64,000 bases of DNA from Clostridia bacterium (GTDB lineage Bacteria > Bacillota > Clostridia > TANB77 > CAG-508). The position numbers and the translations under genes are program-made. This document shows, piece after piece, positions 1,524 to 4,557 of this stretch (its first letter is position 1; every line of letters begins with the position of its first letter). The notes under the pieces are model-generated. The model was not told the origin of the DNA. It ran no database searches and saw nothing but the letters and a program-made list of their open reading frames with translations. Where the stretch lies: positions 11 through 64,010 of the forward strand of contig JAFXGW010000003.1 of NCBI GenBank assembly GCA_017536685.1, written 5' to 3'.

Positions 1524-2753
1524 ATGATTAATTTAGCAGTTATAAGTATAAAAGATATAATAAATTTAATTAAAAAAATTATTTTTGCAGTAATATTTTT
1601 TTGCATAGTATGCAAAATTTTTGGAAGTATTAAAAATGGAAACTATGTAAAAATAGAAGAACTGAAAACAAAATTTGTTTATGATTATTGTGATATTATA
1701 GACCAAAATTTGCTTATTTCTAATTATTATAACAATAATAAAATTATAAATAATAGTGGTATAAAAAAGATTTTGGTGTCTGAACTTTCAATACTTGCAA
1801 CTGAAGAAGAGCTAATGGAAAAAGAGAATCAAGAGGAAATTATAGAATTCGAAACCATAAATAATAAAAATGGTATGGAAGAGTCAAATAATATTATAGA
1901 ATCTGAAGATGATTCACTCAATAGCAAGAAAAAAGAAGAGGGTATAAGTAATACTGATATTGACACCGTACAAAACAATAATATTGCTGAAGATATTTTA
2001 CCAACTAAAATTATAAGCCAAAATAATAAAACAGACACATACACTGATGTTTATAAAAATGTGAAAATAAAAAATGAATCTAAATATACTTTAACTCAAG
2101 AAATGCTTACTCCAAACTTAGAATTTTCTAATAAAAAAGATTTAATAATTTACCATACACATACTTGTGAAAGTTATACACCTACAGATTTTAACAATTA
2201 TGAAGCAACTGGGAATTTTAGAACTACAGATTTAAATTATAATGTTACAAGAGTTGGAAAAGAATTATCAAATTTATTGATTGATAAAGGTTTTAGTGTT
2301 ACTCACGATGTAACTTATCATGATTATCCAGCATACACAGGTTCATACACAAGGTCATTAAAAACAATAAAAAATATTATTGCTAATAATTCTTCGCAAT
2401 TAGTAATAGATTTACATAGAGATGCTTTAGGTAGCAATAGTAGTTATGCACCAAGGGTACAAATAGGAGAAGAAGTTGCTGCTCAGCTTATGTTTGTAAT
2501 TGGTACAAATGGTGGAGGATTAGAACACTCAAAGTGGTTGAATAATTTTAAGTTAGCTATTAAGATTCAAGAAAAGGCAAATGAGATGTATCCAGGATTG
2601 TTTAAACCTATAATCTTAAGAAATTCTAGATATAATCAACACGTAACTACTGGAGCTTGCATAATAGAAGTGGGAGCTACAGGGAATACTTTAGAAGAAT
2701 GTAATATAAGTATGAAATATTTAGCTAAAGTTATTGAGAAAGTTATGGAATAA
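1524..2753 (+). CDS. spoIIP: Stage II sporulation protein P (SpoIIP-like amidase)
   Basis: 409 aa with an N-terminal TM segment. The C-terminal domain carries IIYHTHTCESY, VIDLHRDA and MFVIG motifs typical of SpoIIP. SD AAGAGGG lies upstream. Confidence 0.85.
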   Translation: MINLAVISIKDIINLIKKIIFAVIFFCIVCKIFGSIKNGNYVKIEELKTKFVYDYCDIIDQNLLISNYYNNNKIINNSGIKKILVSELSILATEEELMEKENQEEIIEFETINNKNGMEESNNIIESEDDSLNSKKKEEGISNTDIDTVQNNNIAEDILPTKIISQNNKTDTYTDVYKNVKIKNESKYTLTQEMLTPNLEFSNKKDLIIYHTHTCESYTPTDFNNYEATGNFRTTDLNYNVTRVGKELSNLLIDKGFSVTHDVTYHDYPAYTGSYTRSLKTIKNIIANNSSQLVIDLHRDALGSNSSYAPRVQIGEEVAAQLMFVIGTNGGGLEHSKWLNNFKLAIKIQEKANEMYPGLFKPIILRNSRYNQHVTTGACIIEVGATGNTLEECNISMKYLAKVIEKVME

Positions 2754-2759
2754 GAGTGT

Positions 2760-2788
2760 TTGAAAAAATATTTAATTTATGATATAAT
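2760..2788 (+). promoter_or_regulatory. Near-consensus sigma-A type promoter (TTGAAA-17 nt-TATAAT with upstream TG)
   Basis: TTGAAA at 2760-2765, a 17-nt spacer, and TGATATAAT ending at 2788. It lies directly upstream of the GC-rich ORF. Confidence 0.6.
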
Positions 2789-2846
2789 TTATTAGCCGCA
2801 CTTTGAAAAACAAACCAAATCAATATTGAAAGGAATGGTGCAAGTT

Positions 2847-3185
2847 ATGCGGATTAGATGTACGGAGGGATCTGTTATCGTGATTCAGCTGACCAATGGT
2901 CAAAAGTATGTTGGAAAGTTGAAGGATGTTAAGCCTGATGAGCTGGTTCTGCAGCCGGAGTACTATGTGAAAGAACATAGTTGTACGGCAACCGGATACA
3001 ATGAGATTCATGTGAGGAGAGCGCTACTCGAGAGTTGGCGTTACGCTAATCTCACCACAGATCTGAAAATATCTGCGCTGAGCCTGTTTGTCAACACTGC
3101 CGGCGAAAGTACCTTTTATGACGAGAACGGTTTCTGCATTGGGAAAGGCAAAGACTTTTCTGATGTGCCCGAGAGCAACGGCTGA
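2847..3185 (+). CDS. Hypothetical small protein encoded on a GC-rich island (Sm/LSm-like N-terminal segment suspected)
   Basis: The ORF is open from TTG 2826. ATG 2847 is the most plausible start because the SD AAAGGA at 2829-2834 lies upstream of it. GC is ~47% and the gene uses CTG, CCG, GGC and GCG codons that are atypical for the window. The product is not recognised. Confidence 0.6.
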   Translation: MRIRCTEGSVIVIQLTNGQKYVGKLKDVKPDELVLQPEYYVKEHSCTATGYNEIHVRRALLESWRYANLTTDLKISALSLFVNTAGESTFYDENGFCIGKGKDFSDVPESNG

Positions 3186-3204
3186 AAGCCATAAATCCAC
3201 GTAA

Positions 3205-3250
3205 CAAAAAAGTGATATCTGCTAGAACGTATAGCGGGTATCACTTTTTC
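3205..3250 (+). terminator. Rho-independent terminator of the GC-rich cassette
   Basis: GTGATA (3212-3217) pairs with TATCAC (3239-3244), with inner TGCTA/TAGCG pairing, followed by TTTTT. Confidence 0.7.
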
Positions 3251-3330
3251 ATTTTTACATAATATAAACTTTTATTTAACAATAATAACTTGTAATTAAA
3301 TTTTTGAATATAAGTTATTTTGACAAACGT

Positions 3331-4557
3331 TTATATTTCAATAACTTTATGAGTATAATCCAGGTTGGCAACAGAATTGTTTTTATATCCTAAAGTATAC
3401 ACATTAGTTGCAAAAATATCTTTAGAAATCATATTTTTTAAAATATTGTCATTAGAATTTTCCATAAATTTATTTACAGAAACAATGATTTTTAATTTAG
3501 GGTTAGCAGCAGCTATTGCAGAAATTATTCGTTTTCCAGGTTTGTTAAAACCTAAAACTCTAATATAAGGAGTAACTCTTTTTGATTGATTAATATCTTT
3601 TTGAGAAATATTTAAAAGAGCATATAATAAAATTCTTTGAATTCTGCTTTGAGTGTAACGTTTTGACTTAATGTTTGCAATTAATTCTTTTAAGTTATTA
3701 AAAGAATTGGCAGCAGCTTTTATTTTATTTTCTAATCCCTCTGAAACATCCGGAAGAGAAGCTATTTCAGAAAGGGACATTTTTCTTAAGGTATATATAA
3801 TTTCTTTTTCAAATATAGCTAAACTAGGAACGATTTTTCCTTCCTCTATACATTTTTCTATTAATTCATAAGATTCGTAAGGAATGACTCTATGAATATT
3901 TTTTCCGTTTTGAATCATAGTTCTAATTGCAGTAGCACTAGCGATTCCATTTTTTTCTTGAGTACTATTATAATCGGCGTAATCTCTTTTTATAGTAAGA
4001 GGTCTTATGTGGCTTCTATGTTTTTTTAAGGATTTTAAGTACTCAACTGCTAAAATATTATTTGGATTTGAAACAATTGAAGAGTATTTTTGAGAACTTC
4101 CAAAAAACTGTGAAAGGGCGATTTCACGTGCTTTAGGATATGATAATCCTGAACGAAGTTGGGTTGTAATAAGAGAAGAAAATTCTTTTGGTTCTTTATA
4201 TAAAACGTTAGCAACTTCAAGAAGTGGTGTGATTTCACCAATTTCACTACCAAAAGAAATAAAATCAACAACACCTAAACTATTTAGTATTTTAACAGCA
4301 CCATCAGCAAAATTTTCGGCACTTGATAAAGCATATACTGTAGGAAGTTCGATAACTAAATCGATTCCAGCTTTTAACGCCATTTCAGTTCTAGTCCATT
4401 TATCAACCAAAGCTGTATCTCCACGTTGAACAAAATTACCACTCATTACTGCAACTGTAAAATCTGTTTTTGTTAATTGTTTTGAAACTTCTAAATGATG
4501 AATATGTCCATTATGAAATGGGTTGTATTCTGACACAATTCCTAAAATTCCATCCAA
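3331..4557 (-). CDS. tmcAL: tRNA(Met) cytidine acetate ligase (YlbM/UPF0348 nucleotidyltransferase family)
   Basis: 408 aa. The N-terminus GIVSEYNPFHNGHIHHL (HxGH-type motif) and the overall length match the TmcAL/YlbM family. Confidence 0.85.
   Translation of the reverse strand: MDGILGIVSEYNPFHNGHIHHLEVSKQLTKTDFTVAVMSGNFVQRGDTALVDKWTRTEMALKAGIDLVIELPTVYALSSAENFADGAVKILNSLGVVDFISFGSEIGEITPLLEVANVLYKEPKEFSSLITTQLRSGLSYPKAREIALSQFFGSSQKYSSIVSNPNNILAVEYLKSLKKHRSHIRPLTIKRDYADYNSTQEKNGIASATAIRTMIQNGKNIHRVIPYESYELIEKCIEEGKIVPSLAIFEKEIIYTLRKMSLSEIASLPDVSEGLENKIKAAANSFNNLKELIANIKSKRYTQSRIQRILLYALLNISQKDINQSKRVTPYIRVLGFNKPGKRIISAIAAANPKLKIIVSVNKFMENSNDNILKNMISKDIFATNVYTLGYKNNSVANLDYTHKVIEI

What the first reader, a model, noticed from the sequence alone, without database searches (positions are those of the whole stretch)
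2789..3250. Sharp ~47% GC single-gene island with its own terminator inside a very AT-rich genome
I counted 140 G+C in 2881-3180 (about 47%). A neighbouring line, 3301-3360, has 11/60 (18%). The shift begins near 2795 (GCCGCAC). It ends immediately after a stem-loop terminator (GTGATA 3212-3217 / TATCAC 3239-3244 plus a T-run). The enclosed ORF is 112 aa from ATG 2847 and is open from 2826. It uses CTG, CCG, GGC, GCG and CGG codons that the flanking genes almost never use. The cassette sits at a convergent junction (spoIIP -> <- tmcAL). It lies directly behind an AT-rich near-consensus promoter (TTGAAA-17-TGATATAAT, 2760-2788). The segment SVIVIQLTNGQKYVGKLKDVKPDELVLQ has the alternating strand pattern of small Sm/LSm-like (or DUF2642-like) barrels. 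That is pattern-level inference only. I cannot place the C-terminal ~60 aa. Possible explanations are a very recent horizontal acquisition from a 45-50% GC donor, an assembly chimera, or an artificially inserted cassette. In each case it is the strongest compositional discontinuity in the window.
Basis: partly seen in the sequence, partly recalled or inferred. Interest (0 to 1): 0.8.

Follow-up and report, generated by a model that had tools for sequence, protein, structure and literature searches.

The report
Acquired GC-rich Sm-like gene cassette
A real 460-base stretch of foreign-looking, GC-rich DNA in a very AT-rich gut Clostridium is a self-contained promoter-gene-terminator unit, acquired only in this species, that encodes a small Sm/Hfq-like barrel protein from a rare, unnamed and fast-evolving family.

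Summary
The window is 26.3% GC, 2881-3180 is 46.7% GC, and 2761-3290 is the only stretch of the 64 kb that reaches 40% GC. ORF 2847-3185 has GC3 0.52, against 0.133±0.023 for 45 host ORFs (z=17).

It is neither a chimera nor artificial. Three independent metagenome assemblies carry the island with both junctions at 99.4-99.9% identity, and the only two SNPs inside the ORF are synonymous.

About 24 sister species (Ca. Scatovivens-like Clostridia) have spoIIP and tmcAL convergent at this junction. Eighteen of them have only a 24-185 bp spacer there, and none has this gene. It is therefore a lineage-specific insertion.

The ORF codes for a protein. It belongs to a rare family of about 35 metagenome-only proteins of 110-185 aa with no Pfam or NCBIfam model. 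AlphaFold with the family alignment gives pLDDT 89, and the top 50 Foldseek matches in the PDB are almost all Sm/LSm/Hfq. The C-terminal motif YDxxGxCxGxG is conserved.

Other members sit at two syntenic loci in related 26-28% GC genomes. They are only 36-45% identical between species whose flanking genes are 84-98% identical, yet 100% identical within a species. Their GC3 (0.19-0.40) is milder.

Best reading: a recent horizontal arrival of one family member from an unsampled, GC-richer source. Function is unknown; nucleic-acid binding is a fold-level guess.

The parts
2760..2788 (+). Sigma-A-type promoter: -35 TTGAAA (2760-2765), 17-nt spacer, extended -10 TGaTATAAT (2780-2788)
   Evidence: The consensus scan matches 11 of 12 positions, with TG before the -10. 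Eight or nine of ten family genes elsewhere show the same layout: TTGACA-like -35, 16-17 nt spacer, TGnTATAAT (sequences). Activity is inferred, not measured.
2795..2846 (+). Predicted 5' leader. The GC step (GCCGCAC) starts at the position expected for the transcription start, 7 nt after the -10. A weak SD-like GGTG lies at 2837-2840.
   Evidence: Read from the sequence and the GC bins. The start site is inferred from promoter geometry. Two of the five island SNPs (2796, 2798) fall here.
2847..3185 (+). Protein-coding gene of 112 aa (stop TGA 3183-3185). It encodes a member of an unnamed family with an Sm-like N-terminal barrel (residues about 10-66) and the conserved C-terminal motif F-Y-D-E-N-G-F-C-I-G-K-G (residues 91-102).
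   Evidence: ORF list. HMMER finds 12 genuine homologues of 80-184 aa at E<1e-3 among 1.84e9 representatives. Family alignments A1 and A2 start at this ATG. The two SNPs inside the ORF are both synonymous. AF2 gives pLDDT 89 and pTM 0.82. Foldseek top hits are almost all Sm/LSm/Hfq.
3207..3249 (.). Intrinsic terminator hairpin flanked by an A-run and a T-run. It ends the cassette transcript and any read-through from spoIIP. The perfectly complementary outer stem and the T-run on the other strand could also stop tmcAL.
   Evidence: It is the only terminator-like site in 2400-3700 (18 pairs, loop 7, T-run). It also appears as inverted repeat I1. Two-way use is inferred from symmetry. The inner stem uses three G-T pairs that pair only on the + strand.
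2795..3236 (.). Extent of the GC-rich composition (about 45-47% GC). It corresponds to the predicted transcribed region rather than to the ORF alone.
   Evidence: Composition profile and counts.
1524..2753 (+). Upstream host gene spoIIP. There is no terminator between its stop codon and the cassette.
   Evidence: Pfam SpoIIP, E 9e-62. Terminator scan.
3331..4557 (-). Downstream convergent host gene (TmcAL-type HIGH nucleotidyltransferase)
   Evidence: Pfam HIGH_NTase1, E 7e-137. Orthologues of 70-91% identity occur in 30 related genomes.

Best explanation
The island is a self-contained, single-gene transcription unit: a near-consensus sigma-A promoter with extended -10, a leader of about 52 nt, a 112-codon gene and an intrinsic terminator. 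In the lineage of this one species it was inserted into the short AT-rich spacer between the convergent genes spoIIP and tmcAL.

Its 47% GC (GC3 0.52) is the un-ameliorated composition of a GC-richer source, so this is recent horizontal acquisition. No mobility gene is present, so the insertion most likely happened by recombination.

The product is a small cytoplasmic protein with an Sm/Hfq-like beta-barrel and a conserved Gly/Cys-rich C-terminal motif. It belongs to a rare, unnamed family that also lives in related very-low-GC gut Clostridia. There, older copies at conserved loci show intermediate, partly ameliorated GC and diverge very fast between species.

Shown: the compositional step, the reality of both junctions, absence from sister species, protein-coding status, family membership and the fold class.

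Inferred: promoter and terminator activity, the direction and recency of the transfer, and nucleic-acid binding or ring assembly as the biochemical role.
For: Composition: this is the only stretch at or above 40% GC in 64 kb. GC3 is 0.52 against 0.133±0.023 for host ORFs, z=17. The GC excess also covers the untranslated leader, the 3' UTR and the terminator loop. That fits foreign DNA better than codon selection.

Real junctions: L001, L002 and L003, from three different samples and assemblers, span 2528-3580 at 99.4-99.9% identity with their own SNPs.

Insertion: about 24 related species have spoIIP and tmcAL convergent. In 18 the spacer is 24-185 bp and mostly AT-rich. None encodes a homologue there, by tblastn or by a family HMM on six-frame translations.

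Coding: HMMER finds homologues of 80-184 aa aligned over the full length. Invariant or near-invariant residues are G8, G23, K24, D31, E32, H55, R58, W64, Y66, G95, C97 and G99. Both ORF SNPs are synonymous.

Fold: pLDDT 89 with the 27-sequence alignment. Foldseek matches Hfq at 1.3-1.4 Å rmsd over 58 residues, and the top 50 are almost all Sm/LSm/Hfq.

Amelioration series: copies at loci shared by 3-4 species have GC3 0.20-0.40. The two copies seen at one locus only so far (the window, and L089 next to spoIVB) have GC3 0.52 and 0.55.

Landing site: five sister species carry unrelated GC-rich cassettes at this same junction.
Against: - No donor was found. The nearest relative is only 34-44% identical, and all 12 family genes whose DNA was read lie in 24-28% GC contigs.
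- There is no integrase, transposase, repeat or target duplication at the borders.
- There are no phage or plasmid matches.
- Similarity between the borders and sister-species spacers is not significant (p 0.1-0.96), so the insertion mechanism is unknown.
- Every family member is GC-elevated, including copies inherited vertically across species whose flanks have dS of 0.5-1.0. A rare CGG codon near the start is conserved in 9 of 11 genes. Some of the GC could therefore be maintained by selection rather than being a transfer scar.
- The island already carries five polymorphic sites within the species, so 'recent' is only relative.
Confidence: 0.6

Rival explanations
1. The gene is not foreign. 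A resident family member was copied or moved within the genome to this junction, and its high GC is kept by selection at the nucleotide or mRNA level (for example on transcript structure, stability or translation control) rather than inherited from a donor.
For: All 12 family genes examined lie in 24-28% GC genomes and all are GC-elevated (35-49% GC for the first eight, 31-35% for the last four). This includes copies at two loci that are syntenic across 3-4 species. In most members the GC step coincides with the start and stop of the coding region. Codon 4 is the host-avoided Arg codon CGG in 9 of 11 genes, although synonymous sites are saturated. Four of 12 genes have the complement CCGTAA on or beside the stop codon. 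Coding-region folding z-scores are mostly negative, from -6.8 to 0.
Against: The older syntenic copies have GC3 of only 0.20-0.40. Two of them are within 1.5 sd of their neighbours, as expected for decay rather than maintenance. No RNA structure common to the family was seen. The window gene's own coding-region z-score is only -1.5. In the window the GC excess extends into untranslated parts. No paralogue is present in the 64 kb to serve as a source.
Confidence: 0.2
2. The locus is a recombination hot spot. GC-biased gene conversion or repeated allele replacement raises GC and drives the extreme between-species divergence.
For: The same junction carries different accessory cassettes in 6 of about 24 species, and five of those inserts are GC-rich. 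At the two syntenic family loci the cassette and its intergenic DNA drop to 40-60% nucleotide identity between flanks that are about 90% identical. Protein identity between species is flat at 36-45% whatever the flank divergence.
Against: A shift of GC3 from 0.13 to 0.52 is far larger than anything attributed to biased conversion in bacteria (my own knowledge, not tested here). The family's dN (0.42-0.57) does not exceed the flanks' dS (0.47-0.97). Fast in-situ evolution can therefore explain the divergence without replacement. Within a species the gene is invariant.
Confidence: 0.1
3. The GC-rich segment is a structured non-coding RNA, as GC-rich islands in AT-rich genomes often are, and the ORF is incidental.
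For: The GC-rich span matches the predicted transcript. The transcript 2795-3250 folds with z = -3.8.
Against: There is no Rfam match at gathering or permissive thresholds apart from noise on the terminator. Most of the z-score comes from the terminator; the coding part alone gives z = -1.5. Homologues are conserved at the protein level with different codons. The family alignment supports a confident protein fold. GC by codon position shows the coding pattern, with position 2 lowest.
Confidence: 0.03
4. The island is an assembly chimera or an artificially inserted cassette.
For: The composition step is very sharp and there are no mobility genes.
Against: Three independent assemblies (Logan SRR28204465, ENA ERZ28633636, ENA ERZ27297495) contain the island joined to both host flanks. 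They carry 1-5 natural SNPs each. The protein has natural distant homologues.
Confidence: 0.01

Closest known systems
Sm / LSm / Hfq-fold proteins (small RNA-binding beta-barrels that form rings)
   Same: The predicted N-terminal barrel (strands at 10-15, 20-28, 32-41, 46-49, 54-57, 61-66) superposes on Hfq at 1.3-1.4 Å over 58 residues. The top 50 PDB matches are almost all Sm/LSm/Hfq. The variable-length insert lies where Sm proteins vary, between strands 3 and 4.
   Different: There is no sequence-level match to the Pfam LSM or Hfq models. Foldseek E-values are weak (0.02-0.05), and TM normalised to the query is only about 0.4, because half of the protein is not covered. The model has no N-terminal helix. 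There is an extra, conserved 45-residue C-terminal region with the YDxxGxCxGxG motif. Ring formation and RNA binding are untested.
Pfam DUF2642 (PF10842) and the Veg-like protein 3FB9 (small SH3/Sm-like barrel proteins of Bacillota)
   Same: DUF2642 is the best sequence-level match to residues 6-37 (E 1.3e-3). The family profile's best PDB match is 3fb9_A over the same N-terminal strands. Identifying 3FB9 as Veg-like rests on my memory only.
   Different: Both matches are below threshold (19.0 bits against 22.7; E 0.19). Only 2 of 27 family members touch DUF2642 at E<0.1. Those families lack the C-terminal motif.
Phage 'morons' and other autonomous promoter-gene-terminator cassettes inserted between genes; small horizontally acquired genomic islets
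   Same: A single gene with its own promoter and terminator sits between two unrelated host genes. It has atypical base composition and is absent from relatives.
   Different: There is no prophage or phage gene nearby and no match in phage, viral-contig or plasmid collections. The family also has stable chromosomal loci that are inherited vertically.

Membership tests
Horizontally acquired genomic islet | Base composition and codon usage atypical for the host | tested here: met
   47% against 26% GC. GC3 0.52 against 0.133±0.023, z=17.
Horizontally acquired genomic islet | Absent from the same locus in related genomes | tested here: met
   No homologue at the junction in about 24 related species. 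Spacers are 24-185 bp in 18 of them.
Horizontally acquired genomic islet | Identifiable donor or closely related copy elsewhere | tested here: not met
   The best relatives are 34-44% identical. Nothing was found in phage, plasmid, viral or JGI metagenome collections.
Horizontally acquired genomic islet | Mobility genes, tRNA target or flanking direct repeats | tested here: not met
   Neighbours are hisS, spoIIP, tmcAL and rnhA. There is no integrase, tRNA or border repeats.
Sm/LSm/Hfq superfamily | Five-stranded, strongly bent beta-barrel fold | tested here: met
   AF2 pLDDT 89. Foldseek top 50 almost all Sm/LSm/Hfq, with rmsd 1.3-1.4 Å over 58 residues against Hfq.
Sm/LSm/Hfq superfamily | Sequence match to the Sm1/Sm2 motifs (Pfam LSM PF01423 or Hfq PF17209) | tested here: not met
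   A Pfam scan at E up to 10 lists only DUF2642 and DUF1231. None of the 27 members hits LSM or Hfq at E<0.1.
Sm/LSm/Hfq superfamily | N-terminal alpha-helix preceding the barrel | tested here: not met
   The model has no helix before strand 1. The only helix is at 69-73.
Sm/LSm/Hfq superfamily | Hexameric or heptameric ring and RNA binding | not testable with these tools
   This needs multimer modelling or biochemistry.
Pfam DUF2642 (PF10842) | Score at or above the gathering threshold of 22.7 bits | tested here: not met
   19.0 bits, E 1.3e-3, residues 6-37 only.
Unnamed family defined here (alignment A2) | Full-length similarity with the conserved blocks M-x-L-R..G-A, G-K-V..V..D-E-V, H-x-N/R-R-x-L-I..W-x-Y and Y-D..G-x-C-x-G-x-G | tested here: met
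   phmmer gives E 1e-8 to 9e-4 for 12 proteins. The profile scores ORF112 at E 6e-30 and 1.5e-35.
Structured non-coding RNA (Rfam families) | Match to a covariance model | tested here: not met
Phage moron | Located within a prophage or phage genome | tested here: not met
   Housekeeping neighbours. No phage or viral matches.

The most novel reading that the evidence does not exclude
The family may be a previously unrecognised class of species-specific Sm-like proteins. On this reading its GC-rich composition and nucleotide-level features are selected rather than inherited, making each gene a dual protein/RNA-level module. Examples would be a product that regulates its own structured mRNA, or a specificity determinant in a conflict or recognition system. 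The features in question are the host-avoided CGG codon at position 4 in 9 of 11 genes, the start-stop complementarity TTACGG/CCGTAA in 4 of 12 genes, and unusually stable coding-region folds. The window's island would then be a new paralogue of such a system, not a transfer scar.
Probability: 0.15. Interest if true: 0.65.

Novelty: new variant of a known kind. Interest (0 to 1): 0.4.

Why it matters
As a compositional anomaly it is an ordinary phenomenon, a small horizontally acquired gene, though an unusually clean one: a single 460-bp transcription unit with no mobility machinery, verified in independent assemblies.

The added value is the gene itself. It defines a small Sm-fold protein family that has no curated model. 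So far the family is seen only in very AT-rich, uncultured, spore-forming gut Clostridia. It is invariant within species yet only about 40% identical between species whose neighbouring genes are about 90% identical. That pattern is typical of specificity or conflict genes and marks the family as a candidate for experimental study.

The analysis also shows that the spoIIP/tmcAL convergent junction is a repeated landing site for accessory cassettes in this genus.

Tried and rejected
- Non-coding RNA: Rfam at gathering and permissive thresholds gave nothing beyond noise on the terminator hairpin.
- Single-sequence AlphaFold was uninformative (pLDDT 39.6). The family alignment was needed.
- A word-indexed protein search with the single sequence found only the protein itself. 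Full HMMER was required.
- The 1979-aa hit P0003 (E 9e-9) was rejected as spurious. It is a 31% match of 45 residues, summed over tandem Ig-like repeats, and it falls in the family's variable linker.
- Diversity-generating retroelement: no template-like repeat of any island segment exists in the window.
- Defence and phage libraries (PADLOC, PHROGs) gave nothing credible.
- Phage, plasmid and viral-contig searches found no match. Two JGI metagenome scans found nothing: the protein, and a junction 24-mer meant to detect empty sites.
- I tested whether the promoter and terminator derive from the ancestral bidirectional terminator of sister species (GGTGATA...TATCACC in L005 and L007). The local alignments are not significant (p 0.1-0.96), so I make no claim.
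- Similarity between the window island and the GC-rich inserts of sister species: none by blastn or tblastx.
- A conserved RNA structure across family coding regions: none was evident.
- Allele replacement as a necessary explanation for the divergence: dropped after dN/dS showed the family's dN is no larger than the flanks' dS.

Full report
**1.

The window is 26.3% GC. The stretch 2881-3180 contains 140 G+C (46.7%), and 3301-3360 is 18.3% GC. With 300-nt windows (mean 26.3%, sd 4.6%), 2761-3290 is the only part of the 64 kb that reaches 40% GC. The window has no rRNA, and its single tRNA is far away.

The ORF 2826-3185 is open on the + strand, and ATG 2847 gives 112 aa. Its GC by codon position is 0.50/0.38/0.52. 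For hisS, spoIIP and tmcAL the values are about 0.35-0.43/0.28-0.34/0.13-0.15. Across 45 other ORFs of the window GC3 is 0.133±0.023 with a maximum of 0.20. The ORF therefore lies 17 sd out.

The promoter-like site TTGAAA-17-TATAAT, preceded by TG, occupies 2760-2788 and matches 11 of 12 consensus positions. The only terminator-like hairpin of 2400-3700 is at 3207-3249. The flanks are SpoIIP and a TmcAL-type HIGH nucleotidyltransferase, in convergent orientation.

**2. It is real DNA of this organism**

The exact 112-aa protein is encoded on three short contigs from three unrelated public assemblies: Logan SRR28204465, ENA ERZ28633636 and ENA ERZ27297495. Together these contigs cover 2528-3580. 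They include both junctions with spoIIP and tmcAL, and they are 99.4-99.9% identical to the window.

They differ at six positions. Two lie in the ORF, and both are synonymous (ACC>ACA, TTG>CTG). Three lie in the untranslated parts of the island, and one lies in tmcAL. An assembly chimera or an engineered insert is thereby excluded.

**3. It is an insertion specific to this lineage**

TmcAL retrieves 30 related genomes at 70-91% identity, several of them labelled Candidatus Scatovivens. All are uncultured gut Clostridia of about 25-30% GC. In about 24 of them spoIIP and tmcAL are convergent neighbours. In 18 of those the spacer is only 24-185 bp, mostly AT-rich, and usually holds a bidirectional terminator. 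None has a homologue of the ORF, by tblastn or by a family HMM run on six-frame translations.

Five sister species (L008, L009, L028, L029, L033) carry 1-2.4 kb inserts at exactly this junction. These encode an unrelated family of helical proteins of about 165-190 aa. The gene next to spoIIP is 39-51% GC (45-51% in four of the five). A sixth species (L030) has an AT-rich gene for a 607-aa membrane protein there. The junction is evidently a recurrent landing site. The window island shows no similarity to those inserts.

**4. It encodes a protein of an unnamed family**

Curated libraries give only a sub-threshold DUF2642 match (19.0 bits against 22.7; residues 6-37). A full HMMER scan of 1.84 billion representatives finds 13 proteins at E<1e-3 besides the query itself. 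One of them (P0003) is a repeat-driven artefact. The other 12 are small proteins of 80-184 aa that align over the full length.

Two profile searches bring the family to about 35 members. All come from metagenomes, none has a name, and none has a Pfam domain. The conserved blocks are:
- M-x-L-R-F-x-x-G-A
- G-K-V-x-x-V-x-x-D-E-V
- H-x-N/R-R-x-L-I-x-x-W-x-Y
- N-x-Y-D-x-x-G-x-C-x-G-x-G

G8, G23, G95 and G99 are invariant. W64, H55, R58 and C97 are nearly so. Family N-termini align with ATG 2847, which fixes the start codon.

With the 27-sequence alignment AlphaFold2 gives pLDDT 89 and pTM 0.82. The model is a six-strand barrel (residues 10-66), a short helix (69-73), and a confidently placed C-terminal motif in which residues 91-110 have pLDDT 93-96. 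Foldseek against the PDB returns almost only Sm/LSm/Hfq chains in the top 50. Rmsd to Hfq is 1.3-1.4 Å over 58 residues, but E-values are modest at 0.02-0.05. Against viral models it returns uncharacterised small phage proteins, a few of them annotated as Hfq-like or RNA-binding. The best profile match in the PDB is 3fb9 over the N-terminal strands, at E 0.19.

Membership in Hfq/LSm or DUF2642 is not supported. PADLOC and PHROGs add nothing.

**5. What the rest of the family shows**

I read the DNA of 12 family genes. All lie in 24-28% GC contigs of spore-formers, whose neighbours include spoIIIA, gerA and spoIVB. All are GC-elevated (31-49% GC; GC3 0.19-0.55).

Each is monocistronic. Most have a near-consensus promoter with extended -10 (eight or nine of ten), and most have a 60-70 nt leader, a GGAGG ribosome-binding site and their own terminator.

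Two loci are syntenic across species:
- **SpoU-methylase > X > RecD2**, in four species. Flank proteins are 86-98% identical, and X is 36-45% identical.
- **X > < ABC/FtsX**, in three species. Flanks are 84-89% identical, and X is 40-45% identical.

Nucleotide identity falls from about 90% to 40-60% across the cassette and its intergenic DNA. Within a species X is invariant: L098 matches L100, L102 matches L105, P0037 occurs on 16 contigs, and the window protein occurs in three further samples.

The flanks have dS of 0.47-0.97 and dN of 0.007-0.083. X has dN of 0.42-0.57 with saturated dS. Non-synonymous divergence of X is therefore about as large as neutral divergence of its neighbours. This can be reached in place by near-neutral or positively selected change in the two variable loops and the tail. 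Allele replacement is possible but not required.

Copies at the shared loci have GC3 of 0.20-0.40, and some lie within 1.5 sd of their neighbours. The two copies known so far from one locus only, the window and L089, have GC3 of 0.52 and 0.55.

**6. Interpretation**

The simplest account is a series. Family members enter these extremely AT-rich genomes from a GC-richer, still unsampled pool, and then decay toward host composition. The window's copy is a recent arrival at a new site.

Three points support a foreign origin for this copy:
- It is absent from all sister species.
- Its GC excess extends into the untranslated leader, the 3' UTR and the terminator loop.
- GC3 is 0.46-0.61 in every third of the gene.

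Four points weigh against it:
- No donor is known.
- There are no mobility genes or border repeats.
- There is no link to phages or plasmids.
- There are hints of selection at the nucleotide level across the family. Codon 4 is CGG in 9 of 11 genes, whereas five host genes use CGG for none of their 62 Arg codons. Four of 12 genes carry CCGTAA, the complement of the TTACGG at codons 3-4, on or next to the stop codon. Coding-region folding z-scores are mostly negative.

I therefore give recent acquisition 0.6, selection-maintained GC in a resident or translocated paralogue 0.2, a recombination or biased-conversion hot spot 0.1, non-coding RNA 0.03 and artefact 0.01.

**7. How it probably works**

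All of this paragraph is inference. Transcription starts about 7 nt after the -10, near 2795, which is exactly where the GC step begins. It ends at the 3207-3249 hairpin. No terminator lies between the spoIIP stop and the cassette, so read-through from spoIIP during sporulation probably adds to expression. The symmetric outer stem, with T-runs on both strands, could also terminate tmcAL.

The product has no hydrophobic segment and is presumably cytoplasmic. By fold analogy it may form rings and bind nucleic acid. The pattern of strict conservation within species and about 40% identity between species is what one sees for specificity or conflict determinants. No partner gene is evident.

**8. 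Verdict**

This is a genuine and cleanly delimited horizontally acquired single-gene cassette, which is a known kind of event. It carries a member of an undescribed, fast-evolving Sm-fold family, and that is the modestly novel part. Interest is moderate (0.4).

Noticed in passing
L009:7228-8244, L029:7229-8242, L028:7223-9448, L033:7226-9466, L008:7228-9648 (the same spoIIP/tmcAL junction in sister species): Five related species carry 1-2.4 kb inserts at exactly this junction. These hold one to three tandem paralogues of an unrelated helical protein of about 165-190 aa, most of them ending ..KRGI(R/K)NWL(K/R)(E/D)D. L009, L029, L028 and L033 also have an 89-aa CxxC protein there. The gene next to spoIIP is 39-51% GC in 27-30% GC genomes. 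There is no Pfam match and no copy in the window.
   Followed up: partly
L030:7228-9437: Another sister species has a host-like (21% GC) gene for a 607-aa multi-pass membrane protein inserted at the same junction. This is further evidence that the site tolerates insertions.
   Followed up: no
Codons 3-4 of family genes, e.g. L088:1311-1316, L089:248-253, L098:8007-8012; window 2850-2852 and 2861-2865: The host-avoided Arg codon CGG is conserved at codon 4 in 9 of 11 family genes, in the motif TTACGGTTTAA, even though synonymous sites are saturated. Five host genes use CGG for none of their 62 Arg codons. The window gene has CGG at codon 2 and TACGG 6-7 nt further downstream.
   Followed up: partly
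L084:4979-4984, L088:1740-1745, L089:734-739, L098:8445-8450: In 4 of 12 family genes the sequence CCGTAA lies on or just after the stop codon. It is complementary to the TTACGG at codons 3-4. This suggests pairing between the start and stop regions of the mRNA. The window gene lacks it.
   Followed up: partly
L088:1305-1745: This family gene's coding region folds far more stably than dinucleotide shuffles (z = -6.8). It includes a hairpin with 23-nt arms at 1411-1457. Five of ten family coding regions have z below -2.5.
   Followed up: partly
L084:7369-8292 versus L088:4168-5100: The gene just downstream of RecD2 (about 307-310 aa, no Pfam) is also only 34% identical between two species whose RecD2 is 92% identical. 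It is a second hypervariable gene in that neighbourhood.
   Followed up: no
window 2789-3250 versus its flanks, in L001-L003: Five of the six polymorphic sites among four haplotypes fall inside the 462-bp island, against one in about 590 bp of flank. The numbers are too small to be significant, but the island may be more diverse than its surroundings.
   Followed up: no
L084:791-1201, L098:3623-4015, L102:8116-8637: Other small unannotated genes in these AT-rich genomes also show raised GC3 (0.24-0.29 against about 0.14-0.17). Mildly GC-elevated accessory genes may be common in this clade.
   Followed up: no
window 3066-3094 (- strand): A promoter-like site inside the island on the antisense strand (TTGACA-17-TATTTT, 10 of 12 matches). 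It was not examined further.
   Followed up: no
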